Below are positions 1,741 through 43,361 of a stretch of DNA of 49,220 nucleotides, one piece after another; position 1 is the first letter of the stretch; every line of letters starts with the position of its first letter. A program made the translations under genes and the position numbers. Where the stretch lies: positions 1-49,220 of the forward strand of contig JAHBMJ010000381.1 of NCBI GenBank assembly GCA_018398765.1. The letters are read 5' to 3'. The notes under the pieces were generated by a model. It saw only the letters and a list, made by a program, of their open reading frames with translations. It had not been told where the DNA came from and made no database searches. Origin of the DNA: Chromera velia (Eukaryota).

Positions 1741-1969
1741 CTATAGCGAAACTCTTTAATTTCGGCTCGCATTTAAGTTTCATCCTTGCACTCACTGGTC
1801 ACTGGTGACCACTGCATACCACTGCTGCATGGTTCTTGCATGTTCTTGTTTGATTGGCATTGCAGTTTCGTTTTGAGATCTATCTTTTCACTTTACTGAG
1901 ACTCAAGCCCCGCTCCTGCAATCAACCAGGCGGTAGACCGAGAGACCAGGAGACGCCGCGTATCTCAAG

Positions 1970-3500
1970 ATGACAAGCACTCAGGGAGAAGATCTCGGGG
2001 GAAAGGGCTTGTCCAAGGTCACGCTGGGTTCTTCGTATATGCCTGCATTCAAAGGGGCCTGTGAGGCAGCCGTGGAAGTCATGGAGAAGTCAGGAAAGCT
2101 GGATCTGACCGAGCTAACCAGTCTGATCAGGTGCTACAACCTGTCGGTGGAGACGGTGAGGAAGTTCTTCCCTGGTGCTACCAACAGCAAGGACATCCTC
2201 ACACAGCTTGACGCCACTCTGAAGCGTCTGGATGTTACTGGCGAGAACACTTTGTATGCCCAGTCTGTGTGTCCTGATGAGATCAACCATGAGGAAGGAG
2301 ACATCACTGACATCCTGGCCTCCTATATGGGGGAGGTGTTCCATCTGGGGGGTCTCGCCGGACTGCCCTTCACAGGAAGGACGGGATTTGCGGCCTTCTC
2401 TCACCACGTGCCTGATGGTTTGTCAACGATTCTTGCTCTCTGCTTGTTTGTGCGAGTGTGTGTTTGCGTGTGCGTGTGTTTGTGTGTCTGTGCTTCTCTC
2501 TCCTGCAAAAAGATAGTGTAAGATGTGGACGAGGGGCGCTAGGAGAGAGAGATTGGATAGAGGCAAAGACGCAATGAGAGTAACAACCAAGATCGTACGG
2601 TGAAGCATGTCACAGTATAACTACGAAGAGGTCCCAATTTGACTCCCAGAAAGGAAAGCAGACACGTGCATGACCAGAAAGAAAATTGAGGATGCGCATG
2701 ATACACTTGGGGTTTGGGGGTGGCAGTTTATTCACCGAGTCTTTCGATTCTCGTGTATGTCCAAAACAGCTTGATCACTTCTGTCAAGCCTCGATCACGA
2801 CCGAAAGCGAGACAGGGCCCCTTCGTCGTCACTGTAGTCCCCCGATTCTTTTATCCATCCATGTCCCTGATTTCCCCTCTTTGTGCATACGTGTGAGTGA
2901 GAGCAGGAGGCAATCTCTTCATCCTCATGGCCCCCCACATCGGCATCTCTGACTCCCACCAACTGGGGATGTACTCACGCGTAGGCCAGGAGAGAGACGG
3001 CACTGCGTGTGGTGCCGCTGTAGGTGCCCTCAAGGCTGCCTGCTCTCTTGACTCCCCCCTCACTTTGGAAAGCCTCGGAGGATGTTTTGAAGACTACCAG
3101 ATGAACTTTATCATCTCGGAGGTACAGAAGAGAAAGGACGAAATTTGCAAAGAACCAGAAGGCAACCCCAGACAGGCGGCCCTGATCCATGCCGTCTACG
3201 ACGTCTCGAAAAAGTTCCTCGACAACATCGTGTCAACGGAATTCGGTGATAGACAGGGAAAGCTCTTTCTCCTCTGCGGCGTGCAGGTCAGTCGATTCGC
3301 TCATTCAAATGTATGTGTGATGGGATACATTAATCCGCATGTATTCATACATGGAAATTGGCAAGCATAGCAACACCCTGGGAGAAAGCGTATACAGTCA
3401 ATCCTATGGTTTGCGCAGGCGCATTTTTTTCCTTGCTTGTCGCTCGTGTCAACAGGGGCGCTTGTGTGATTATTGGGGCGTGTCCTTTATGCCAATAGCA

Positions 3501-26800: not shown

Positions 26801-28592
26801 AGAGAACAACAGAATGTAGGGGAAAGAAGATCGAATACCTCATGCGGAGTCCTTCCTCCCACCTGCATGGACATGCGCGGGAAGAAAAAGAAGGGAACAG
26901 AGACCAAGAAGATGGAGAGAAGCTGATTCTCTCTTTTGTCGGTCTATCTGAATTCATTCTTTTGTCAATCAAAAAACGCTTCCCCGTGCTCCATGGACTG
27001 ATGTCGGTCTGTCCCTCTGACCCTCCTTCCTTCCTTCAGACAGCAGCGAGGGGGCGATCGAAGAACTCCTCTACGAATTCGAGGAGAAAGAGGAGGAGTC
27101 AAACGGGGCGTGAGCAAAGAAAGAAATGAAAATGGAATGACGAAGCCCCCAAACTCACTGCATGAAGTCAGAAAAAGAAGAGAAAGGTTGAGGGCATGAT
27201 GAGGGAATGAAGAGAAGAAGGAAGCAAAACCAGCAGATAGAGTGGGGGACGATCGACCCAGGGGGAGCACGTCAGTCAGGCGCCCCTTGATTTAAGAATT
27301 CATACTCCATTTCTCTTTCTTCCACCGTCTCTCTTGTTTGCTCGGTCGGAGAGACAACCTGTGTGTCTGTCTGTTTGTGTCTCAACCTGTCTGTCCGTCC
27401 GAGCTTTTTCTAGGCCATTCTTCCTCGCCGTCTTCCACTCACCGTTTTTGCGATCCTTCCTGCCCTCGCTCCTCATAAATTTCAATGAGGCCGAGACGTG
27501 ACTGCAGCAGCAGTATTGCTCTTAGACCTCTATGGTCAGAAGGAGATGAAGGCCATCCGTCGATCGACTCTTTTGCATGTCCATTACATGGTGCGTCGTC
27601 TTGAGGTGCCTCGTGGTGACTCAAACATGTGGTAGATGCTCTGCAGGCGCAGGCATTTCTGGGCAGTTTGTGACAACAGGCAGATTGATGCAAAGGAGGA
27701 GAGGAGCAAACAGGAACAAGTGAAGGGGGGCAAAGAAGTCACCCCGAGCGGGAGAGACACAACGGAAGAAGAGAGGGAGGGAACATGTTGGCATGGATTA
27801 TGACTGCACAGACGTTGTGTGGCTGGCTGGCTACCGAATTCACGAAAGAAGGAGAAAGAGGTTGGCAGAGAGAGAGAGTTCCGTGACGCTTCCGGTCCCT
27901 CTGCCTGCCCATCTCTTTTCTTCTCTTCCTTCTTTCGAGTTACCTGTGAAGTTGTCCTGCCTGCATGCAAGCACAATTTGATCCACATGCATCCAAGCTG
28001 AGCAAGACTCGGACAAGTTCCCGGTCTACGAGTTGTCCAGGTGTTTGCTTCTTCTAAGTCATTCTTTCTGCCTGCACTTCGATTAACGCATTTGTTGATC
28101 GCTTTCTCTCTGAGTTGCCGGGCGATGAGAAGAGAAAGCAAAGAAAGCAATGTTGATGCAAGTGCTTCCTTTTTTCATCATCTGTGCAAGTGTGGTGGTT
28201 AGCTGCTGATGCTTCAAAGAGAAAGACCTGTTGACGCTACACGTACAGTGTCTTAAAAAAAAAGAGTGAACATTGAAAAACCACTCACTTGGACTAGGAC
28301 TTGGCTAGGGACTTGGATAGACTTGGAATGCCAAGTGGCTGAAAGACGCGCTACAAGCGGGCTTTATACACGCTGGTGTGCAAATAACTACATAAAATAT
28401 GAGAACTTCCATTTAAAATGGATCCGTTCATACCTATAGGCTATAGCTAAGATCGAAAAGGGCATTTGAAGGTGGTATCACAGTGCTTACAACATCAAAT
28501 TCTACATCAAATTGTCATCAATTAAGGTGTTTACTCATGATATAATTATACTGCTAGTACCCATATAAAAAAATCCTGAAATTGGTCTTAAC

Positions 28593-30274
28593 TAGGGATA
28601 TCTATCGTATTGTATCGGTATCGTATCGGAATTTAACGTTCCAAAAAAAGGGGGTATCTTTGATAATTTTGATGCTGAAATAAAATTTTTAGCATACGAG
28701 GTAGTGACTATGTTTGATTTGATTTGATTTGATTTGATTTGATTTAAGTTAGGGCTTAAGCTCAAATCAAATATCCAGTCAGGGAGGACCTAGTGTTTAA
28801 AGACCTATCAAATACGATCAAATATTTGATCAATATGACTTTCAACCTCAAATATGAAGGTCCCGAAAAAACTTTTGTAAGTACCGATCCGTCACGCATG
28901 CTGATTCAAATGAAAAAACCTAAATCTTGATGGTTTGCTCTCAAAAAAAAAAGTTTTGAGCTGCATTGAAATTGATGTTTCACCCCCTTTTACTTCATGC
29001 AGAGGTAAACCGATCAGCTGAACGTTTTCCCGAACAGCTGTGTTGACTTTTCTGGTGCTGGAACATCTTTTACGGCCCTCTTTTTGAGCGTCTGCAAACA
29101 TTTTACACCCCATAAAGACATGTCACACAATCCGACAAGGTCGAACGGGAAGAAGGAGGCATTTGTTTTTAGAGCCGGGTACGCAAAAAAAATATGGTCC
29201 ATGCAAAAGGGGGCAAATGTGATTTAGTGTCAGATGAAAATATAAGGAGCTGAGGGGGAAAGAGAAACTATTTGCGGCTGTGAGTATACAGCAGCGGCAA
29301 CCAGTTCTTTTCAAACCCACCTCATCAATCAGCATGGCTTGACGATCACGTCTGACAAACAAATAGCAAACGTGTGCGCGGTTCTCGTCTTTTTCACCCA
29401 GGAGCACCCACTCCTGGAAAGCCGAAAAGCCAGAGAAAAAGCTCTCAGCAGCTCCCACCACCGATCGATTCGATTCATATTGAAGAAAGTGATCATGAAA
29501 AAGAGGAAAAGGAAGTGCCATAAAGCTGAGTGATTGTCACCTCAATTTTGGTACGTGCTCTAACTTTATCGTATCAACAAAAAGTCATATACAATTTCAA
29601 ATCTATTAATTTTACGTTCTTAATCTCTATTAGTACTAGAGTGAGTCTCAGTGACTAGTGTATATACACTGCCACACAGGCATATTTTTTTTACGGAACT
29701 GATAAGTTATAATTTTATATATATTTTTTTAAATTTTTGAAACACACATCAGAAATGTTCTGATAACTATTGTCATGAGAAAAATGATCAGAGTGACAGT
29801 AAGTCAGTGACTCAGTGAGGAACTCTAAGAGGTTAACCTCAAATCTTACCTCAAATATCAAATATTTGAGGTTGAAGCTCAAATCAAATCAAATCAAATC
29901 AAATCAAATCACATCAAATCAAATATAATCAAATCAAACATGGTCACTAGTACGAGGCTAAAACCTATAGTGCAAACAGTATCATTCGTCAAACTAAAAA
30001 CTTTTTGTAAAAACCTCATGTTTTTAAAGAGTCAACTTTACTTAGAAAATGGGCTTCGAAACGTTTAGAAGGCCAAACTACCCCCCTAACCCCCCCTTTT
30101 AAAAGAGTCAACACATCATCAGATTAGTAGTAGTCCTTCACAAATATTCACATGCAAGCTCTAAGCAGGCCGATACTAACCAATACTCGGCCGCTCGAGA
30201 AAGAACCAATAGTCAATACTTCGATACCGATACCAATATAATACGATACGATATCGATACAATAGCTATCCCTA
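28593..30274. mobile_element. hAT-type MITE 1 (426 bp when empty), interrupted here by a nested element
   Basis: TIR TAGGGATATCTATCGTAT ... ATACAATAGCTATCCCTA; perfect 8-bp TSD GTCTTAAC (28585-28592, 30275-30282); subterminal GATAC-like repeats. Confidence 0.88.
28702..29949 (+). mobile_element. Non-autonomous hAT element 2 (1248 bp) with a decayed BED zinc-finger remnant
   Basis: TIR TAGTGACTATGTTTGATT / AATCAAACATGGTCACTA; subterminal (TTTGA)n/(TCAAA)n arrays; 8-bp TSD ATACGAGG/GTACGAGG; empty site GTACGAGG at 36664-36671 in copy B. 29192-29341 translates IWSMQKGANVI*CQMKI*GAEGERETICGCEYTAAATSSFQTHLINQHGL. Confidence 0.9.
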
Positions 30275-30305
30275 GTCTTAACACTATAGTCTTAATATCT
30301 AGCTC
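30132..30305. repeat. 174-bp direct repeat flanking the LINE (partner 34880-35053; in copy B 36846-37019 and 41589-41757)
   Basis: AGTCCTTCA...ATCTAGCTC is present immediately on both sides of each LINE copy. Confidence 0.9.
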
Positions 30306-33300
30306 AGTTAGTTAGTTAGTTAGTTAGTTAGTTAGAAGATGCCTAACCCCAGTAACTGTTGGAGCGCTAAGCTCCCGGGCGGCATATACATGCATGGTTG
30401 TTGTTTGTTAAGTCGCCGGTGGAGTTGATCAGTTAATCACTTTCTAGAATAGAAAGAGAAGCATCAAAGAGACAGAGCGTAGAAGCGATCGAATGACATT
30501 ACAGATAAAGAGTTCAGATATACTTGCACCGGGGAGTGGACAGTTACAATCATTTAAATTAATGGATTCCAGCTCAGCCAGGCAGTGCAGGAATTCTCTT
30601 TCATCCAGCTACTTGGCACATGAAGAAAGTCTATGCATGAAGTCATCAACATACTGAATACAAGAATCATGTACACAGAGTTTGTGGTCGCTACATTCAA
30701 AAGACAGAGCACTGCTTTCGCCTTGTGGTTTAAATAAGAGCAGACGTAAGAAACCGAACAGAGAGCTGTCGGTTACTATGAGAACAGATCGAGGGAGAGC
30801 AGAAAAGGAGTAGAGACTAGAGGCGGATTTATTGTAAAGAAGAAACATAAACATGCGATGAGAGGAGGGAAAAGCTTGTTGAAGGGGGGTGAGCTTGGCA
30901 AGAGGAGGGAAATGTGAAGAAGCGATATTAGCCCCCGCCCGCCGCGTGCAGACCTCTTCCATAACTGTATGTCTAGCTCTGCCCTTAAAAAAGAGAGAGC
31001 CGGTTCCATGAACTCTCTGTCACTGCTGTCCGCTGGTGCTAGGGTGTTGCAGCACTCCCACCCCTAACGAACAAACAAAATCCAGACCAGCCCAACGAAG
31101 CAGCCACAAGGAGGCTCTCAAAAACTCTGGACAAGTGTTTCTCTTCCAGCTTGGCACGTAGCATTGCAGCGGGAACGGTATGCATGGTTTGTGAGAGCGA
31201 GCACCACCAGTCGGCCACTTTAGAGCAAAGCAGGGCTTTTGCAGGAAGCAGGCCGAAAATACACAGGGAGGGCAAACGAAGACTGCGAGCAGGCAGACGG
31301 CCAGACCAGCGTGCAAAACGGAGCTGCAAAGCATCGATTGCAAGAAGATCGGCATCACAAAGAGGGAAGGATTCGAGGCAGTACAGTATAACAGAGGACC
31401 AACATGCTTTAAAAATAGTCATTTACGTATCTACACTGAGGGAATCTATGCTGGCAATCAGACCAAACACAGCCCCCAGCGTGCAGGAGGCCGAAGCAAT
31501 ACGCAATTCAACTGTCTCACTGAGGCTTCCCCCCTCAAAGAACAGGCACCCCAGGTACTTGTATTCCGTTGCCTATTCAACCTCTTTCCCTTCATATTGT
31601 AACACCACCACACTGGAGCTTTTCCCAAATGCAGAGGCAGACAGGCGAAGAATCTTTGTCTTTTTCAGATTAACTGTAAGTCTCCATTCTTTGCAATACT
31701 TCTCGAGAGCAGAGAATTTCTTTTGAAGGTCTGAGACGGAATGGCCAAGAAAGCAGAGATCGTCAGCATAACTCAAACTGTCCAGGATACAATCATCTAG
31801 CAAAACTCGCTCCGGCTCACTTTCTGGCTCCTCTCCACTGCCCGTTTCCATTTCAGAATCTAATATGTCTGCCCGCTCTCGCTCTACTGCCTCGCTGGTA
31901 TGCCTTGCCTCGCTCTTCTAGCTCGCTCTTGCTTGCAGAACACACACGGGGGAGATCATTTATGTACAAAAGAAAAAGAATAGGCGAGAGGGCATCCCCT
32001 TGCTTCACTCCAGTGCCCTCCCAAAAATGTAGAGAGTCCCCGTCAACCTTGCCCCATACCTCTCTGTACATTTCACAGATCATGCAGATGTCTGCCTCAC
32101 TCACACCTTCATTTCTCAGTTTCTGAATTAACTTTGCTCTCGGCACAGTGTCAAACGCCTTTGAAAAGTCAACAAAACCTGCTAACAGAGCCTTTCTTTT
32201 CTTTTTACATGAAGAAACAACAGAGACAAGAGCACCGACCCCCTCTCTGAGGCTCGTTCCCACCCCTTCACGGAACCCTAGCTGTTTGAAGTTAAGACAG
32301 ACCTGGGAATGCATACGGCAGTCCATCAGGAGGCCGAAAAGTTTTGCAAAAGGGTTTACAACATGGATTGGTCTCCATTCGTTAGGAGAGGGGGAAGCAG
32401 CCTGAGGGCCTTTCAGAACTAGGCAAATGTGCAAAACGTTCCATGAAGGAGGCCAGCAAGCATGAATATGCATCAGGGCTAGGCATCAAATTAAATAAAA
32501 CAAAAAGTAAAAAGCGGGAGAGAGCAGATTTGGCAAAGCAGAGATCTAGCTGTGCAAAAGAGATGCCTTCAAGGCCAGTAGCTTTCTTCTTGTTCATTTT
32601 CTTCAGGTGGGAAGAGATCTGGTGAAAAGAGAAGGGCAGAGCAGAGGGGTGGAAGGGAGGAGAGGCAGGGGGATGGACCAAAGGGAGAGGCTCCTTGTTC
32701 AGATCTTCAAAAACACCCGCCCAATAGTTCAAAAATATGCGGGAGGACGGGCATGATACACCACCAGCCGACGAGGCGGCTTTCTTCTTCCTTTTCCAAA
32801 GGGAGAGAGGATCCTTGAGGAATTCTTCTTGAACCCTCTGTGCTTCTTTCTTCTTCTAAGCAGCCTGTTTGCGTTTAAAGAGGCTACGGCGGACCCGGAG
32901 TAGTCTCTGAAGGCGATCGAATTCCAATCCTCTCCCACCCATATCTCTCACCAACTTCCAAACGCGGTCCGCCTCTCTTACTTCCTTTTGTATGGACTTA
33001 CATTCTTCATCAAACCAAGCCTCTTTCATTCTACGCTTAACCCCCAACCCAAACCTTGCTCCGTTCTTTTTCAGTTTCACAGGCCCAACGAGCAGTCGAG
33101 ACCACTCCTGGACAAATCTGAGGAGGCAAGCATGACTGTCCTTGGCCCCCCCTTGCGGAGAAAAGAGGGGATCAGGCGAGTCAGGGGGGCAGAAGAGAAA
33201 GGGCGGGAGGATTCGGGAGGGGGAGGAGGGACAGGCGGCTCTACAAAAGGCTCAATCTAGTTGTGATATTCCCATAGACCCAGCCAGCGCTATTCTACGA

Positions 33301-34879
33301 ATCTTTTGACTGCAGCTGCCAACAGTGCAAGCTCTTCATCTGATATGGGGGTGGAGCGGTTAGAACAGAAGAGCAAAGGGCATTCAGAGAGGTTCTGGTG
33401 GGGCAGAAGGGCGTCTTCTTGCTCTGGTTTGATTGAAGGGGGGCAGAGGGAAAAAGAGACAGATGCGTGGTCAAGGGAGGCAATACCATCAAATTTAACC
33501 TTCTAATCAGCGATCTTCTTAACAACAGAGGGGTCAGTTAACATATAATCTATGACGGAGGTGGGCTTTGACATCTGCGACTGTCTGGAGTAATGCGTAC
33601 AGAGACCAGGGAAGTCAAACTCTTTTCCACCCACTTTTTCTTTCAATCCGTTCAGGGGGACAAGGTTCGAATCGCTGCAGAGCTGAATAAAATTCTTTCC
33701 GCAGGGCTTGACTTCTTGTATACATTCAGAGGACCGTTTGAACAACGGTGTGTCTGCTTCAGTTTTGGGCCCCTCCCCTACAATACTACCATCTCCATTG
33801 CCTCCCCCCTCAAAAGGCTCCTCACTGCTACCAGACTCATTGGGCAGAAGAAGGAGATCTGTACAGGACCAGAGAAGATTCTCGGGTAAAAGGGAGCCTA
33901 TATGTGTGTTGCAGTCCCCAACCACAACTCTATCGACATCCAGAGGGACCCCTCCAAAAAGGTTACTCAAATGGCCAGAGACCTTGTTGTCTCTGTGATC
34001 TAACCAGGAGCCAAGCAGGTAGACGCCAAAGATGTGAACCCTTCTAGAACCCCCTAACAGAACTTTTGTTTCCATTATACTGGGGCCGACCAACAAGATT
34101 TCAGGTTTCAATTCGCTCCATCTTTCTTCTTAAACTAACATACAAACTCCCCTAGTTTTCAATTCCCTGTCATGTGCTGCCCTACGCGTGCCCAACTGCC
34201 GCCGGTACCATTCTCTGTAACAGTCACTGAAATTCTTTCCCTTCCACCCCTTACACAAAACGTCCCTCATAACCTCTGACATATCTGTCAAGATTACAAT
34301 ATTGCAATCAATCTCATTTAGCCAACAAGCGAGGGAACCGTCCTCTTCCCTGGCCTTCAGGCCGGCAACATTTAGGGTAACAATCTTTACTCTCCCATCC
34401 CGGGCCCTAATTGCAGCTAAAACCTTCCTTTCTACCATCTTCCTTCTCTCTCTCCAAAAAGCTCTTCTCAATTCTTCCGAATGCTTCAAATTATCTGCTG
34501 ACTCCCACAAATACGAAAAAGCAGGGCCCCAATTTTAATCCATATAATACTCCCTCTACTCCCCTTCATTGATGTGAGTGTCTAACACCTACACCACCTC
34601 CCACTCCGTCTCCAAAGCAACCAAGCCCCCTGCTTCCCCCGGCTGATCTAGCTGAGACTCTCGGGACGCGACGCCTGCCCTCTTGCTTTCTCTTCTTTTC
34701 TTCCCCCTTCCTTTTCTACGATTCTTCCTCTCTGCCCCACATAAAAGAGACGGATCCAAATAAAAAGACTCTAGAGAGGCTTAGCTGCAGGGGGGGGAAG
34801 AAGACAAAAAGTCAGGTACGATATCAGAGGCAAGAGGGGAGAGAGTCGAGTCGGAAAGAGAGGAGAGGGACTTACCTGC
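30306..34879 (-). mobile_element. Non-LTR retrotransposon (LINE), chromodomain-APE-RT, inactivated, copy A
   Basis: APE motifs KIVTLNVAGL, IFGVYL, VVVGDCNTHIG, IDYML, SLDH. RT motifs WRPIHVVN, QLGFR, FVDFSKAFDTV, GVKQGDALSPILF, YADD. 3' tail (CTAA)n at 30306-30335. In-frame stops and frameshifts. Confidence 0.95.
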
Positions 34880-36562
34880 AGTCCTTCATAAATATTCATA
34901 TGCAAGCTCTAAGCAGGCCGATACTAACCGATACTTGGCCGTTTGAGAAAGAACCGATAGTCGATACTTCAATACCGATACCGATACGATACGATACAAT
35001 ATCAATACGATAGCTATCCCTAGTCTTAATACTATAGTCTTAATATCTAGCTCTCTCTCTCTATATATATATATAATATATATACATATAGTATTAATTT
35101 ATATTGATTTTTTCTTTATTTGGTCTAGTAGTATTCAGTATATGACTCGAAAAAACCTGGTATTAGGCTGGTAATAAACTGTATAAGGTAGTGACCATAA
35201 TATATAACCGAGCAGGCCGGCCAACTTGAAGGACGTCTGATGTGCTAGCTGATGCTTCTTTTTAAGTTTAGAAGCTGGACCTAGAGCTGGATATCGGATA
35301 TTCGCTAGGATATTCCAATCATATTCGGCAGTGAATTGACACTAAACTCGGCATTAGGGCCAGGGCTAGCCTAAGGGCCAATCCTCTGGACATCGTACAT
35401 AACTTCTTATCGGAGGCCTAGTCGGAGGCTCATCTTATTAATAATATTAAGTATAAATCCTATATTTATTATGCTAAAATAATTTTTGTGAATCACATTG
35501 CTAGTTACATTGATAATTATAATATCTCAGCCAAGCTAATTATCATGGTGCGTCGTCTTGAGGTGCCTCGTGGTGACTCAAACATGTGGTAGATGCTCTG
35601 CAGGCGCAGGCATTTCTGGGCAGTTTGTGACAACAGGCAGATTGATGCAAAAGAGGAGAGGAGCAAACAGAAACAAGTGAAGGGGGGCAAAGAAGTCACC
35701 CCGAGCGGGAGAGACACAACGGAAAGAAGAGAGGGAGGGAATATGTTGGTATAGATTATGACTGCACAGATGTTGTGTGGCTGGCTGGCTATCGAATTCA
35801 CGAAAGAAGGAAAAAGAGGGTGGCAGAGAGAGAGAGTTCCGTGACGCTTCCGGTCCCTCTGTCTGCCCATCTCTTTTCTTCTCTTCCTTCTTTCAAGTTA
35901 CCTGTGAAGTTGTCCTGCCTGCATGCAAGCACAATTTGATCCACATACATCCAAGCTGAGCAAGACTCGGACAAGTTCCCGGTCTACGAGTTGTCCAAAT
36001 GTTTGCTTTTTCTAACTTAAAGTCATTCTTTCTCAGACTGCCTGTACTTCGATTAACGCATTTGTTGATCGCTTTCTCTCTGAGTTGCCGGGCGATGAGA
36101 AGAGAAAGCAAAGAAAGCAATGTTGATGCAAGTGCTTCCTTTTTTCATCATCTGTGCAAGTGTGGTGGTTAGCTGCTGATGCTTCAAAGAGAAAGACCTG
36201 TTGACGCTACACGTACAGTGTCTTAAAAAAAAAGAGTGAACATTGAAAAACCACTCACTTGGACTAGGACTTGGCTAGGGACTTGGATAGACTTGGAATG
36301 CCAAGTGGCTGAAAGACGCGCTACAAGCGGGCTTTATACGCACTGGTGTGCAAATAACTATATAAAATATGAGAACTTCCATTCAAAATGGATCTGTTCA
36401 TACCTATAGGCTATAGCTAAGATCGAAAAGGGCATTTGAAGGTGGTATCACAGTGCTTACAACATTAAATTCTACATCAAATTGTCATCAATTAAGGTGT
36501 TTACTTATGATATAATTATACTGCTAGTACCCATATAAAAAAATGCTGAAATTGGTCTTAAC

Positions 36563-36988
36563 TAGGGATAGCTATCGTATTGTATCGGTATCGTATCGGA
36601 ATTTAACGTTCTAAACAAAGGGGGTATCTTCGATAATTTTGATACTGACATAAAATTTTTAGCGTACGAGGCTAAAACCTATAGTGCAAACAGTATCATT
36701 CGTCAAACTAAAAACTTTTTGTAAAAACCTCATGTTTTTAAAGAGTCAACTTTACTTAGAAAATGGGCTTCGAAACGTTTAGAAGGCTAAACTACCCCCC
36801 TAACCCCCCCTTTTAAAAGAGTCAACACATCATCAGATTAGTAGTAGTCCTTCACAAATATTCACATGCAAGCTCTAAGCAGGCCGATACTAACCGATAC
36901 TCGGCCGCTCGAGAAAGAACCGATAGTCAATACTTTGATACCGATACCAATATAATACGATACGATATCGATACAATAGCTATCCCTA
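36563..36988. mobile_element. hAT-type MITE 1, uninterrupted copy (426 bp)
   Basis: TIR TAGGGATAGCTATCGTAT / ATACAATAGCTATCCCTA; TSD GTCTTAAC at 36555-36562 and 36989-36996. Confidence 0.9.
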
Positions 36989-37019
36989 GTCTTAACACTA
37001 TAGTCTTAATATCTAGCTC

Positions 37020-40000
37020 AGTTAGTTAGTTAGTTAGTTAGTTAGTTAATTAGTTAGAAGATGCCTAACCCCAGTAACTGTTGGAGTGCTAAGCTCCCGG
37101 GCGGCACATATATGCATGGTTGTTGTTTGTTAAGTTGCCGGTGGAGTTGATCAGTTAATCACTTTCTAGAATAGAAAGAGAGGCATCAAAGAGACAGAGC
37201 GTAGAAGCGATCGAATGACATTACAGATAAAGAGTTCAGATGTACTTGTACCGGGGAGTGGATAGTTACAATCATTTAAATTAATGGATTCCAGCTTAGC
37301 CAAGCAGTGCAGGAATTCTCTTTCATCCAGCTACTTGGCATATGAAGAAAGTCTATGCATGAAGTCATTAACATACCGAATACAAGAATCATGTACACAG
37401 AGTTTGTGGTCGTTACATTCAAAAGACAGAGCACTGCTTTCGCCTTGTGGGTTAAATGAGAGCAGACGTAAGAAACCGAACAGAGAGCTGTCGGTTACTA
37501 TGAGAGCAGATCGAGGGAGAGCAGAAAAAGAGTAAAGACCAAAGGTAGATTTATTGCAAAGAAGAAACACAAACATGCGATGAGAGGAGGGAAAAGCTTG
37601 TTGAAGGGGGGTGAGCTTGGCAAGAGGAGGGAAATGTGAAGAAGCGATATTAGCCCCCGCCCGCCGCGTGCAGACCTCTTCCACAACTGTATGTCTAGCT
37701 CTACCCTTAAAGAAGAGAAAGCCAGTTCCATGAACTCTCTGTCACTGCTGTCCGCTGGTGCTAGGGTGTTGCAGCACTCCCACCCCTAATGAACAAACAA
37801 AATCCAGACCAGTCCAACGAAGCAGCTGCAAGGAGGCTCTCGAAAACTCTGGACAAGTGTTTCCCTTCCAGCCTGGTACGCAGCATTGCAACAGGAACGG
37901 TATGCATGGTTTGCGAGAGCGAGCACCACCAACCGGCCACTCTAGAGCAAAGCAGGGCTTTTACAGTAAGCAGGCCGAAAATACACAGGGAGGGCAAACG
38001 AAGACTGCGAGCAGACAGACGGCCAGACCAGCGTGCAAAACGGAGCTGCAAAGCATCGATTGCAAGAAGATCAGCATCATAAAGAGGGAAGGATTCGAGG
38101 CAGTATAGTGTGACAGGGGACCAACACGCTTTAAAAATAATCATCTGCGTATCTACACTGAGGAGATCTATGCTGGCAATCAGACCAAACACAGCCCCCA
38201 AGGCGCAGGAGGCCAAAGCAATATGCAATTCAACTATCTCACTAAGGCTTCCCCCCTCAAAGAACAGGCACCCCAGGTACTTGTATTCCGTTGCCTATTC
38301 AACCTCTTTCCCTTCATATTGTAATACTACCACACTGGAGCTTTTCCCAAATGCAGAGGCAGACAGGCAAAGAATCTTTGTCTTTTTCAGATTAACTGTA
38401 AGTTTCCATTCTTTGCAATACTTCTCGAGAGCAGAGAATTTCTTTTGAAGGTCTGAGACGGAATGGCCAAGAAAGCAGAGATCGTCAGCATAACCCAAAC
38501 TGTCCAGGATACAATCATCTAGCAAAACTCGCTCCGGCTCGCTTTCTGGCTCCTCTCCACTGCCCGTTTCTATTTCAGAATCTAATATGTCTGCCCGCTC
38601 TCGCTCTACTGCCTTGCTGGTATGCCTTGCCTCGCTCTTCTAGCTCGCTCTTGCTTGTAGAACACACACGGGGGAGATTATTTATGTACAGAAGAAAAAG
38701 AATAGGCAAGAGGGCATCCCTTTGCTTCACTCCAGTGCCCTCTCGAAAATGTAGAGAGTCCCCGTCAACCTTGCCCCATACCTCTCTGTACATTTCACAG
38801 ATCATGCAGATGTCTGCCTCACTCACACCCTCATTTCTCAGTTTCTGAATTAACTTTGCTCTCGGCACAGTATCAAATGCCTTTGAAAAGTCAACAAAAC
38901 CTGCCAACAGAGCCTTTCTTTTCTTTTTGTACGAAGAAACAACAGAGGCAAGAGCACCAACCCCCTCTCTGAGGCTCGTTCCCACCCCTTTACGGAACCC
39001 TAGCTGTTTGAAGTTAAGACGGACCTGGGAACGCACACGGCAGTCCATCAGGAGGCCAAAAAGTTTTGCAAAAGGGTTTACAACATGGATTGGTCTCCAT
39101 TCATTAGGAGAGGGGGAAGCAGCCTGAGGGCCTTTCAGAACTAGGCAAATGCGCAAAACGTTTCATGAAGGAGGCCAGCAAGCATGAATATGCATCAGGC
39201 TAGGCATCAGGTTAAATAAAACAAAAAGTAAAAAGCGGGAGAGGGCAGATTCGGCAAAGCAGAGATCTAGTTGTGCAAAAGAGATGCCTTCAAGGCTAGC
39301 AGCTTTCTTCTTGTTCATTTTCTTCAGGTAGGAAGAGATATAGTAAAAAGAGAAGGGCAGAGCAGAGGAGTGGAAGGGAGGAGAGGCAGGGAGATGGACC
39401 AAAGGGAGAGGCTCCTTGTTTGGATCTTCAAAAACACCCGCCCAATAGTTCGAAAATGCGCGGAAGGACGGGCATGATACACCACCAGCCGATGAGGCGG
39501 CTTTCTTCTTCCTTTTCCAAAGGGAGAGAGGATCTTTGAGGAATTCTTCTTGAACCCTCTGTGCTTTTTTCTTCTTCTAAGCAGCCTGTTTGCGTTTAAA
39601 AAGGCTACGGCGGACCCGGAGTGGCGATCGAATTCCAATCCTCTCCCACCTACATCTGTCACCAACTTCCAAACGCGGTCTGCCTCTCTCACTTCCTTTT
39701 GCATGGACTTGCATTCTTCATTAAACCAAGCCTCTTTCATTCTACGCTTAACCCCCGACCCAAACCCTGCTCCGTTCTTTTTCAGTTTCACAGGCCCAAC
39801 GAGCAGTCAAAACCACTCCTGGATAAATCTGAGGAGGCAAGCGTGACTGTCCTTGGCCCCCCCTTGCGGGGAAAAGAGGGGATCAGGCGAGTCAGAGGGG
39901 TCAGAAGAGAAAGGGCGGGAGGATTTGGGAGGAGGAGGAGGGACAGGCGGCTCTACAAAAGGCTTAATCTAGTTGTGATATTCCCATAGACCCGGCCAGC

Positions 40001-41588
40001 GTTGTTCTGTGAAACTTTTGACTGCAGCTGCCAATGGTGCAAGCTCTTCATCTGATATGAGGGTGGAGCGGTTAGAACAGAAGAGCAAAGGGCATTCAGA
40101 GATGTTCTGGTGGGGCGGAAGGGCGTCTTCTTGCTCTGGTTTGATTGGAGGGGGGCAAAGGGAAAAAGAGACAGATGCGTGGTCGAGGGAGGCAATGCCA
40201 TCAAATTTAACCTTCTAATCAGCGATCTTCTTAACAACAAAGGGGTCAGTCAACATATAATCTATGACGGAGGTGGGCTTTGACATCCGCGACTGTCTGG
40301 AGTAATGCGTACAGAGACCAGGGAAGTCAAACTCTTTTCCACCCACTTTTTCTTTCAATCCGTTCAGGGGGACAAGGTTCGAATCGCTGCAGAGCTGAAT
40401 AAAATTCTTTCCGCAGGGCTTGACTTCTTGTATACATTCAGAAGACCGTTTGAACAACGGTATGTCTGCTTCAGTTTCGGGCCCCTCCCCCATAATACCA
40501 CCATCTCCATTGCCTCCCCCCTCAAAAAGCTCCTCACTGCTACCAGACTTATTGGGCAGAAGGAGGAGATCTGTATGGGACTAGAGAAGATTCTCAGATA
40601 AAAGGGAGCCTGTATGCGTGTTGCAGTCCCCAACCACAACTCTATCGACATCCAGAGGGACCCCTCCAAAAAGGTCACTCAAATGGTCAGAGACCTTGCT
40701 GTCTCTATAATCTAACCAGGAGCCAAGCAGGTAGACGCCAAAGATGTGAACCTTTCTAGAACCCCCCAACAAAACTTTTGTTTCCACTATACTGGGGCCG
40801 ACCAACAAAATTTCAGGTTTCAATTCGCTCCATCTTTCTTCTTAAACTAACACACAAACTCCCCCAGTTTTCAATTCCCTGTCATGTGCTGCCCTACGCG
40901 TGCCCAACTGCCGCCGGTACCATTCTCTGTAACAGTCACTGAAATTCTTTCCCTTCCACCCCTTGCACGAAACGTCCCTCATAACCTCTGACATATCTGT
41001 TAAGATTACAATATTGCAATCAATCTCATTTAGCCAACGAGCGAGGGAACCGTCCTCTTCCCTGGCCTTCAGGCCGGCGACATTTAGGGTAACAATCTTT
41101 ACTCTCCCATCCCGGGCCCTAATTACGGCTAAAACCTTCCTTTCTACCATCTTCCTTCTCTCTCTCCAAAAAGCTCTTCTCAACTCTTCCGAATGCTTCA
41201 AATTATCTGCTGACTCCCACAAATGCGAAAAAGCAGGGCCCCAATTTTAATCCATATACTACTCCCTCTGCCCCCCTTCATTAATGCGAGTGTCTAACAC
41301 CTGCACCACCTCCCACTCCGTCTCCAAAGCAACCGAGCCCCCTGCTTCTCCCGGCTGATCTGGCTGAGACTCTCGGGACGCGATGCCTGCCCTCTTGCTT
41401 TCTCTTCTTTTCTTCCCCCTTCCTTTTCTACGATTCCTCTCTGCCCCACATAAAAGAGACGCATCCAAACAAAAAGACTCTGGAGAGGCTTGGCTGCAGG
41501 GGGGGGGAGAAGACAAAAAGTCAGATACGATATCAGAGGCAGGAGGGGAGAGAGTCGAGTCGGAAAGAGAGGAGAGGGACTTACCTGC
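37020..41588 (-). mobile_element. Non-LTR retrotransposon (LINE), chromodomain-APE-RT, inactivated, copy B
   Basis: Same APE and RT motifs as copy A (ORFs 40842-41222, 40581-40823, 38575-39156, 38295-38525); (CTAA)n tail at 37020-37056. Confidence 0.95.
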
Positions 41589-43361
41589 AGTCTTTCATAA
41601 ATATTCATATGCAAGCTCTAAGCAGGCCGATACTAACCAATACTTGGCCGTTCGAGAAAGAACCGATAGTCGATACTTCGATACCGATACCGATACGATA
41701 CGATATCAATACGATAGCTATCCCTAGTCTTAATACTATAGTCTTAATATCTAGCTCTCTCTCTCTCTCTATATATATAATATATATACATATAGTATTA
41801 ATTTATATTGATTTTTTCTTTATTTGGTCTAGTAGTATTCAGTATATGACTCGAAAAAACCTGGTATTAGGCTGGTAATAAACTGTATAAGGTAGTGACC
41901 ATAATATATAACCGAGCAGGCCGGCCAACTTGAAGGACGTCTGATATGCTAGCTGATGCTTCTTTTTAAGTTTAGAAGCTGGACCTAGAGCTGGACATCG
42001 GATATTTGCTAGGATATTCCAATCATATTCGGCAGTGAATTGGCACTAAACTCAGCATTAGGACCAGGGCTAGCCTAAGGGCCAATCCTCCGGACATTGT
42101 ACATATCTTTTTATCGGAGGCCTAGTCGGAGGCTCATCTTATTAATAATATTAAATATAAATCCTATATTTATTATGCTAAAATAATTTTTGTGAATCAC
42201 ATTGCTAGTTACATTGATAATTATAATACTTCAGCCAGGCTAATTATCATAGACTTAAGCAGTTACCACTGTTTAGTTGTATCTGGAGACTTCCTCGTCT
42301 CCGAGGAAGGAGTATATTGCTAACCTAGGCTAATAGCCTAGGCATAATAATTCTCGGGCACTGCTAGTCGTCTATCCTTACCTAGTTTGTGAGAAGGAGG
42401 TAAAGAGAGAAGAAAGGACCATAGAAAAGATGTTAGTCTGCTATACAGAGGCACCCTGCGTATAGAAGACTGGGCACGCGAGCCGCTGAAACAGTTATGA
42501 GTAGCCCAGAGCGACTCGACCCTGTTTCCCCCCAAGGCTCTGTTGCTGTATAGCAATCTCTAATATCTCTATCCTATTGGTGGTCCCTAGGCGACTGTTA
42601 CCCCCTACCTCATGTAAGCTTGGTGTAAAGGAGGAATAGAGTTGGGATACTACTAGTATAGGTTTAATATATTTTAGTTGTATGGTTATCACCAGAGCCT
42701 TATTAGTGGAAGTACTGTGGAACTACCAATAAACAAGACCTTTGGTATATATGTCTGCAACAATTGTCGAAACATATAGGGTGGAGAGGGAGGGTAAAAG
42801 GAAATACCTATGGACCGCGAAGCCAGACGAAGAGGGCCCAAGTTCGTATGGCTCGAAAAACATTCGAATGAGTAGGCCGCCTAGTGAAAACAAACCCCAC
42901 GAAGTCTCTCCTCGACTTGAACTAATTTGCCTTTCTTGAAACCTTGGAGCGACTCTATTTTTTGGAGACTGCCAATTTTATTGTTTTACTCGCATATGTA
43001 TGCTTTGCGGGGCCATTAACGTAGCGACGTGCCCCGGCCTTACGGTGCTGCGCGCGGTGGGCTCCGCCACCCACTATCTTATGCGAAACGCGCTGTGTCT
43101 TAAGAGATAAAGGGTTCTAGCTCGCCCTGCCCGACTCACGCTAGGACTCACGCCTCCCCAGACCCTAACTAAAGATAGTGGATTGCTCCCGTCTGTGCCC
43201 TACGCTATATAAAGGAGAGCCCTCGGCTGCGCTTCACAGATGAATCTGCTAGTGGATTGAATTATAAAAAATTCTAGAAAAATATAACTTATAGTTTGAT
43301 CTAGTAGTTTGATCAGCGTTGTAAAGCATTGATTATAGTATAATTCAATCTAGAACTCAAT

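What the first reader, a model, noticed from the sequence alone, without database searches (positions are those of the whole stretch)
34440..34612. LINE with an N-terminal chromodomain fused in frame to the APE endonuclease
Seen (copy B about 41330-41155; copy A equivalent here): EWEVVQVLDTRINEGGQRE-Y-YMD*NWGPAFSHLWESADNLKHSEELRRAFW, where copy A supplies the Tyr for copy B's first stop and the shared TAA falls where Trp (TGG) is expected. The frame continues without shift into KIVTLNVAGL, the first APE motif. Established: the chromodomain consensus is (Y/W)EVE.ILD.R...G..EYLVKW.G....TWEP.ENL....L...F; chromodomains steer chromovirus LTR integrases to heterochromatin, and the non-LTR cases I recall are C-terminal in fungal elements. 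Inference: a LINE lineage tethering its nicking domain to methylated histones, consistent with its insertion in a transposon nest.
Basis: partly seen in the sequence, partly recalled or inferred. Interest (0 to 1): 0.85.

Follow-up and report, generated by a model that had tools for sequence, protein, structure and literature searches.

The report
Chromodomain fused to a LINE endonuclease
Two dead copies of a LINE jumping gene, most likely from the alga Chromera velia, carry a chromodomain-like module in the same reading frame directly before the DNA-nicking enzyme, and a third copy shares it; the module likely helps dock the element on chromatin, but what it binds is untested.

Summary
Both decayed LINE copies have a ~50-residue segment in frame, 22 codons before APE motif I, with no frameshift between them. 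It matches chromodomains weakly but consistently: Pfam E 0.004/0.06 (below cut-off); 7 of 8 PDB hits are chromodomains. It is probably not a capture at this locus. A third Chromera velia copy (P0003, ~80% identical) has a stop-free chromo-APE fusion, and all 10 listed Atlas structure neighbours of its segment come from Chromo-bearing clusters. A sister family (P0007, APE ~40% identical) has a structurally chromo-like segment in the same place. Limits: my two shallow AlphaFold models did not give the fold. The family keeps 2 of 3 cage aromatics and the sister family none. The TAA may lie in a 2-codon insertion, not at the Trp. The element looks 5'-truncated and starts with a 91-nt intron-like stretch, so 'N-terminal' is unproven. 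A and B are one insertion, duplicated. PHD-APE fusions in CR1/L2 LINEs and Chromo-fused transposons in Chromera are already in print; my ten searches found no chromo-APE LINE. The scan had not noted this on other DNA. New variant of a known kind.

The parts
30306..34879 (-). LINE copy A (APE-RT, decayed, probably 5'-truncated)
   Evidence: six-frame translation; RVT_1; junctions
34454..34606 (-). Chromodomain-like segment, copy A (3 stops)
34679..34720 (-). Basic Lys/Arg patch in the same frame, NLS-like (inferred); P0007 has a similar patch upstream of its segment
34785..34875 (-). 91-nt intron-like stretch (GTAAGT donor, CTGAC branch-like site, pyrimidine tract, TGCAG acceptor), starting 4 nt inside the element's 5' end; splicing not shown
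33464..34387 (-). APE endonuclease, copy A (TLNV ... GDCN ... IDY ... DH motifs)
   Evidence: 3 close homologs pass the Pfam Exo_endo_phos cut-off; modelled part matches L1 EN / ExoIII weakly, E 0.04-0.1
31546..32386 (-). Reverse transcriptase, copy A, split by a frameshift shared with copy B
   Evidence: RVT_1 E=1.4e-15 and 1.2e-07
30307..30334 (-). (TAAC)n 3' tail, copy A
34880..35053 (.). 174-bp direct repeat on the 5' side of copy A, read as a long target-site duplication
30132..30305 (.). 174-bp direct repeat on the 3' side of copy A (91% identical to the 5' side)
37020..41588 (-). LINE copy B, the same insertion carried in a tandem duplication (95% identical to A)
41166..41318 (-). Chromodomain-like segment, copy B (2 stops)
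40176..41099 (-). APE endonuclease, copy B
41494..41584 (-). 91-nt intron-like stretch, copy B
37021..37056 (-). (TAAC)n 3' tail, copy B
41589..41757 (.). Direct repeat on the 5' side of copy B
36846..37019 (.). Direct repeat on the 3' side of copy B
36563..36988 (.). 426-bp MITE with terminal inverted repeats and an 8-bp duplication GTCTTAAC (hAT-like by recalled criteria); its right end lies inside the LINE's flanking repeat

Best explanation
A LINE family, most likely of Chromera velia, carries a chromodomain-like module in the same reading frame directly before its APE endonuclease, and the module likely acts as a chromatin tether that holds the nicking enzyme on nucleosomes, probably in transposon-rich chromatin. 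Shown: the in-frame order basic patch - chromo-like segment - basic helix - APE - RT - (TAAC)n tail in two dead window copies, the same stop-free fusion in a third copy, and a chromo-like predicted structure at the same place in a sister family. Inferred: the fusion was translated as one protein; the module entered the lineage before the two families split; the protein is imported by the basic patch, binds chromatin through the chromodomain, nicks through the APE and integrates by target-primed reverse transcription (established LINE chemistry). The ligand is open. The incomplete aromatic cage makes canonical H3K9me/H3K27me reading no better than even. My odds: about 0.85 that the domain is a real family trait, about 0.6 that it tethers to chromatin if so.
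For: Pfam Chromo is the only family hit for each isolated 58-aa segment. 7 of 8 PDB hits are chromodomains; the 3-copy profile gave 2 of 2 hits, both Chp1, E 0.1. P0003 (Cvel_12371) has the segment at 78-82% identity to A/B, against 81-83% in the adjoining APE stretch and 75-79% upstream, with no stop. Atlas structure search of P0003 15-85: 10 of 10 listed rows are clusters carrying PF00385, TM 0.68-0.76, aligned part labelled Chromo in 7, each under the tool's naming bar. P0007 (Cvel_17861) 172-245: 5 of 10 rows carry PF00385; the aligned part is Chromo in 3 and Chromo_shadow in 1; best TM 0.64 and 0.68. Of the 15 homolog records, only P0003 and P0007 run far enough upstream of an intact APE start to test, and both have the segment. 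Precedents: chromodomain targeting by MAGGY, and PHD readers at the 5' end of ORF2 or of a single ORF in CR1/L2 LINEs (passages); locus L021 has PHD and APE in one ORF.
Against: No sequence hit reaches a curated cut-off, and P0003 has no Pfam hit at all. AlphaFold on 7- and 4-row alignments gave pLDDT<50 for the segment or a hairpin plus helix with pTM 0.39 and no chromodomain match. Atlas feature scores were 0.76-0.78, in the range that shuffled proteins reach. The P0007 segment has no significant sequence similarity to chromodomains or to the window family; a register chosen by eye scored above all but 70 of 20,000 shuffles, which is post hoc. The third cage residue is Ala or Gly in this family and P0007 has no cage. 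P0004 and P0013 gene models start at a Met just before the APE, and P0006 has unrelated sequence there. One insertion site only. P0003's flanks were not seen, so it could be an old duplicate of the same insertion.
Confidence: 0.52

Rival explanations
1. The chromodomain is a real family trait but binds nucleic acid or protein, for example the element's own RNA or target DNA through its basic C-terminal helix, and does not read histone marks or steer insertion.
For: Incomplete cage here and none in P0007. Both families keep an Arg/Lys-rich helix after the last Trp. The best PDB match is Chp1, whose chromodomain also binds RNA (recalled, not read). Cage-less chromodomains in Skipper-2 go with a non-heterochromatic target (PMC5006619, passages).
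Against: Two cage aromatics and an acidic stretch before the first are kept in all three copies of the window family. No binding data either way.
Confidence: 0.25
2. The 5' block (intron, basic patch, chromodomain) is a fragment of a host gene or another transposon, captured once and carried as a passenger, or it is the tail of an ORF1 that is translated separately from an APE starting at an internal Met.
For: A canonical-looking intron sits at the element's 5' end. A Met lies 18 codons before APE motif I in A and B, and P0004/P0013 start at a Met near there. C. velia has many Chromo-fused transposons as possible donors (bioRxiv 10.1101/2021.11.30.470311, section read).
Against: P0003 has Val at that Met position. 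No stop separates segment and APE in P0003 or P0007. A passenger would hardly keep frame and predicted fold in two families whose APEs are only 35-42% identical. No close donor was found among 1.84 billion representatives at E<=0.001, a harsh threshold for 50 residues.
Confidence: 0.15
3. The likeness to a chromodomain is chance in a decayed linker.
For: Sub-threshold scores; negative AlphaFold/Foldseek results; the 4-row profile that includes P0007 found no chromodomain in the PDB.
Against: Sequence search (7 of 8 PDB hits) and Atlas structure search (10 of 10 rows) point to the same family by different methods, and a divergent sister family points there too.
Confidence: 0.08

Closest known systems
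Chromoviruses (Ty3/gypsy LTR elements: MAGGY, Skipper, CRM) and oomycete Chronos
   Same: A chromodomain fused to the enzyme that attacks the target DNA; canonical and cage-degenerate versions both occur (PMC5006619, PMC5348765, PMC11288735; passages read).
   Different: Those are LTR elements with the domain C-terminal to integrase. Here it is a non-LTR element with the domain directly N-terminal to an APE endonuclease.
CR1/L2-lineage LINEs with a PHD finger at the 5' end of ORF2 or of a single ORF (L2 subgroups 4 and 5, CR1 subgroups 4 and 6)
   Same: A histone-reader-type domain upstream of the APE in the same frame, proposed to aid targeting and untested (PMC4120745, passages); seen here too in L021.
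   Different: PHD zinc finger instead of a chromodomain. The window RT is only about 25-37% identical to any relative found and is not placed in these lineages.
Chromo-fused transposons of Chromera velia noted by Grau-Bove et al. (bioRxiv 10.1101/2021.11.30.470311)
   Same: Same likely host; the text says Chromo-fused transposons expanded in C. velia.
   Different: The section read does not give the element type for Chromera, and its named Chromo retrotransposons are Gypsy/ERV. The screen was Pfam-based, and P0003/P0007 have no Pfam Chromo hit. Supplementary Table 6 could not be seen and may list LINE fusions.
APE-type LINEs generally (L1, RTE/RTEX, CR1/L2)
   Same: APE-RT order, short-repeat 3' tail, flanking direct repeat, probable 5' truncation.
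   Different: Extra chromo-like module, intron-like 5' stretch, 174-bp flanking duplication, and about 45 extra residues before the YADD motif. Clade not determined.

Membership tests
Chromodomain (PF00385) | Profile match above Pfam's gathering score (25.1 bits) | tested here: not met
   17.5 bits (B, E=0.004) and 13.7 bits (A); no hit for P0003 or P0007. The copies are decayed.
Chromodomain (PF00385) | Closest solved-structure relatives by sequence are chromodomains | tested here: met
   7 of 8 hits at E<=10, best E=0.006; 2 of 2 with the 3-copy profile; 2 of 6 for whole P0003
Chromodomain (PF00385) | Three-stranded sheet plus C-terminal helix | tested here: inconclusive
   Atlas models match Chromo clusters (TM 0.68-0.76 for P0003, up to 0.68 for P0007); my shallow AlphaFold models did not form the fold
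Canonical (group I) methyl-lysine-reading chromodomain | Three-residue aromatic cage | tested here: not met
   By alignment to Chp1/HP1 (cage positions recalled): position 1 Trp, position 2 Trp (P0003; stop or Trp in A/B depending on register), position 3 Ala or Gly with a Phe or Trp adjacent. P0007 has none.
Canonical (group I) methyl-lysine-reading chromodomain | Binds H3K9me/H3K27me | not testable with these tools
   needs a binding assay
APE-type LINE | APE endonuclease upstream of a non-LTR RT | tested here: met
   APE motifs by sequence; the window APE itself has no Pfam hit but homologs P0004, P0005, P0006 pass the Exo_endo_phos cut-off; RVT_1 hits; 25 of 36 RT relatives carry PF03372 or PF14529
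APE-type LINE | Simple-repeat 3' tail and target-site duplication, no LTRs | tested here: met
   (TAAC)n tail; the 174-bp flanking repeat consists of a MITE end plus its flank, so it is host-site DNA and not an LTR
A named LINE clade (RTE/RTEX, CR1/L2, L1, I) | RT phylogeny with labelled references | tested here: inconclusive
   Quick tree of 108 unlabelled rows: window RT on a long branch (2.23) with no close relative; no labelled references available
Chromovirus | LTRs and integrase with C-terminal chromodomain | tested here: not met
   APE-RT element with a tail; no integrase frame seen in the six-frame reading

The most novel reading that the evidence does not exclude
A deep-branching, intron-containing LINE lineage of chromerids acquired a chromodomain directly in front of its endonuclease, independently of chromoviruses, and uses it to read silent-chromatin marks and insert into transposon nests; a sister family then lost the cage and changed ligand. 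This would be a non-LTR counterpart of chromoviruses in the closest photosynthetic relatives of malaria parasites.
Probability: 0.3. Interest if true: 0.75.

Novelty: new variant of a known kind. Interest (0 to 1): 0.5.

Why it matters
LINE target choice is usually credited to the endonuclease itself, and the reader domains seen in LINEs (PHD) are untested. Two sister families, one with a partial cage and one without, offer a natural comparison for testing whether a histone reader steers LINE insertion. The idea itself is not surprising, given chromoviruses, PHD-LINEs and the Chromo-fused transposons already noted in Chromera, and all copies seen here are broken or fragmentary.

Tried and rejected
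Searches used wrong frames for three references; redone. Search for long intact homologs of chromo+APE (803-2290 aa): none among 7,985 candidates scored. P0003 as query returned only itself among 81 candidates. APE-pattern scans found no relatives in metagenome contigs (0 of 188 stretches) or viral contigs (0 of 43). RT relatives: 0 of 36 proteins carry PF00385. Of 80 metagenome loci, 30 with about 2 kb or more upstream gave 88 ORFs; I sent 41 of them from 24 loci to Pfam: 0 Chromo, 4 PHD, 4 GDSL esterase at E<=0.05. Profiles of the segment found nothing in the six frames of all 80 loci. These relatives are distant (about 30% identity), so this only shows that the fusion is not general. One search was circular (P0007 was inside the query alignment) and is discarded; the non-circular repeat was negative. 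The fixed register was off by one and was redone. Antibody hits to the P0007 segment are chance motif matches. AlphaFold, Foldseek and VIA-align gave no chromodomain match on shallow models; treated as inconclusive. Reading the 174-bp repeats as LTRs was rejected because they contain a MITE terminus and its 8-bp duplication. Complex prediction was not used, as it cannot model methyl-lysine. Papers not held: Gao 2008 and the journal version of Grau-Bove.

Full report
Setting. The window is intron-rich eukaryotic DNA. The closest homologs of the element are Chromera velia gene models: 7 of the 9 clusters found hold one, at up to about 80% identity. The host is therefore most likely C. velia; this is inferred from homology, as no genome was held. 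Self-comparison shows a tandem duplication, 27583-35546 against 35539-42250, 95-96% identical. Each unit holds one minus-strand LINE: A at 34879-30306 and B at 41588-37020.

Anatomy. From the 5' end: 4 nt, a 91-nt intron-like stretch (GTAAGT, CTGAC, pyrimidine tract, TGCAG), a Lys/Arg patch, the chromo-like segment (A 34606-34454, B 41318-41166), a basic helix, APE motif I 22 codons later, the remaining APE motifs, a linker, the RT (RVT_1 E=1e-15 and 1e-7) and a (TAAC)n tail. A 174-bp direct repeat flanks each copy. It consists of the right end of a 426-bp MITE plus flank, so I read it as a long target-site duplication. Its two sides are 91% identical, less than A against B, so the insertion predates the tandem duplication and A and B count as one event. 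Both copies are dead: several shared and private stops, and frameshifts downstream of the APE.

Is it a chromodomain? The evidence is weak in each test but points one way. Pfam Chromo is the only family hit for the isolated 58-residue segments, at 17.5 and 13.7 bits against a cut-off of 25.1. Seven of 8 PDB hits are chromodomains, best Chp1 at E=0.006; a wrong frame gave none. The Atlas model of the stop-free copy P0003, residues 15-85, has 10 of 10 listed structure neighbours in Chromo-bearing clusters at TM 0.68-0.76, each under the tool's naming bar; its feature scores were uninformative. Against this, my AlphaFold runs on 7-row and 4-row alignments left the segment unfolded or gave a hairpin plus helix with no chromodomain match. 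With such shallow alignments I count these as inconclusive.

Is it a family trait? The search of 1.84 billion representatives gave 9 hits, and their clusters 6 more records. Two of the 15 extend far enough upstream of an intact APE start. P0003 (Cvel_12371) has the whole segment in frame with no stop, as conserved as the adjoining APE (78-82% against 81-83%). P0007 (Cvel_17861), a sister family with an APE 35-42% identical, has a basic patch, then a segment whose Atlas model matches Chromo clusters (5 of 10 rows, TM up to 0.68), then a Trp-bearing basic helix and the APE. By sequence alone that segment is not significantly like a chromodomain or like the window family; only a post hoc register scores above chance (70 of 20,000 shuffles). 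P0005 and P0015 reach only the helix. P0004 and P0013 start at a Met just before the APE, and P0006 has unrelated sequence there. So chance capture at this locus is unlikely, but the sample is small and P0003's flanks were not seen. Distant LINEs lack the domain: 0 of 36 RT hits and 0 of 41 ORFs sent from 24 loci.

P0003 is two codons shorter at the shared TAA and has a Trp there. The window copies also carry a second 2-codon insertion, in the APE, that is absent from all six homologs aligned, and an 8-bp direct repeat around 5 nt near the shared RT frameshift. The TAA may therefore be part of an insertion instead of a mutated TGG; I cannot decide. In either register the third cage position is Ala or Gly, and P0007 has no cage aromatics (cage positions recalled; group I/II definition from PMC5006619 passages). 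No Met precedes the domain in either copy and the element starts just before an intron-like donor, so it is probably 5'-truncated and the true N-terminus is unknown.

Mechanism. Most likely (about 0.5): one polypeptide carries chromodomain, APE and RT, and the chromodomain holds the endonuclease on chromatin and biases nicking, followed by ordinary target-primed reverse transcription. The fusion is shown at the DNA level; translation as one protein, binding and targeting are inferred by analogy with MAGGY and with PHD-bearing CR1/L2 elements. Rivals: nucleic-acid or protein binding without mark reading (0.25), passenger or separate ORF (0.15), chance (0.08). The single insertion into a MITE is compatible with nest targeting but has almost no weight, since selection alone concentrates surviving insertions in such places.

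Literature. Ten full-text searches were run. Six direct phrases for chromodomain-bearing LINEs returned 0 papers; one search listed 40 of 120 papers. I saw passages of PMC5348765, PMC6338049, PMC11288735, PMC4112212, PMC5006619, PMC3956500, PMC4501334 (plus a term search of 12 of its 16 supplements), PMC4120745 and PMC10799480, and passages plus one full section of bioRxiv 10.1101/2021.11.30.470311. None of what I saw describes a chromodomain before a LINE APE. The bioRxiv paper does state that Chromo-fused transposons expanded in C. velia; its Supplementary Table 6 is closed and may bear on novelty. The clade is unplaced: the quick RT tree puts the window on a long branch among unlabelled rows. 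Earlier scan notes hold no look-alike; one unchecked note describes a LINE with a SET domain in the same position.

Verdict. A real, probably lineage-level chromodomain-APE fusion in a LINE, not found described in the papers searched, with the function inferred and the cage incomplete. New variant of a known kind; interest 0.5.

Noticed in passing
window 29950-35546 vs 36664-42250: The two duplicated units differ by 225 transitions and 12 transversions; read as C-to-T, rates are highest at CpG (0.18) and CpA (0.13) against CpT (0.05) and CpC (0.04). This looks like methylation-driven or RIP-like decay of repeats in this alga.
   Followed up: partly
window 34785-34875 and 41494-41584, minus strand: Canonical-looking 91-nt spliceosomal intron at the 5' end of the LINE; if real and internal, the family retrotransposes unspliced RNA and may splice to make its protein.
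   Followed up: partly
window 34880-35053 / 30132-30305: Flanking duplication of 174 bp, very long for a LINE target-site duplication.
   Followed up: partly
window about 34236-34247 and about 31868-31888, minus strand (copy A; same in B): Small insertions that resemble DNA-transposon excision footprints (criteria recalled): a 6-nt palindromic insertion in the APE, and an 8-bp direct repeat around 5 nt near the shared RT frameshift.
   Followed up: partly
window 28702-29949: 1.25-kb element with (TTTGA)n subterminal inverted repeats and an apparent 8-bp duplication, inserted in the MITE of unit A only.
   Followed up: no
window about 31780-31920, minus strand: About 45 extra, largely acidic residues between the RT's LYIND and YADD motifs in both copies; family trait or insertion not determined.
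   Followed up: no
Atlas result, row 7: An unnamed 56-member cluster (513 aa) with RVT_1 86%, Chromo 46%, zf-C2H2 11%: possibly another group of chromodomain-bearing retroelements.
   Followed up: no
L021:222-2393: Metagenomic LINE ORF with a PHD finger (residues 50-109) and APE (197-387) in one frame.
   Followed up: no
window 1937-3370 (+): Exons that look by eye like a limiting-CO2-inducible (LCIB-type) protein; label recalled, no call.
   Followed up: no
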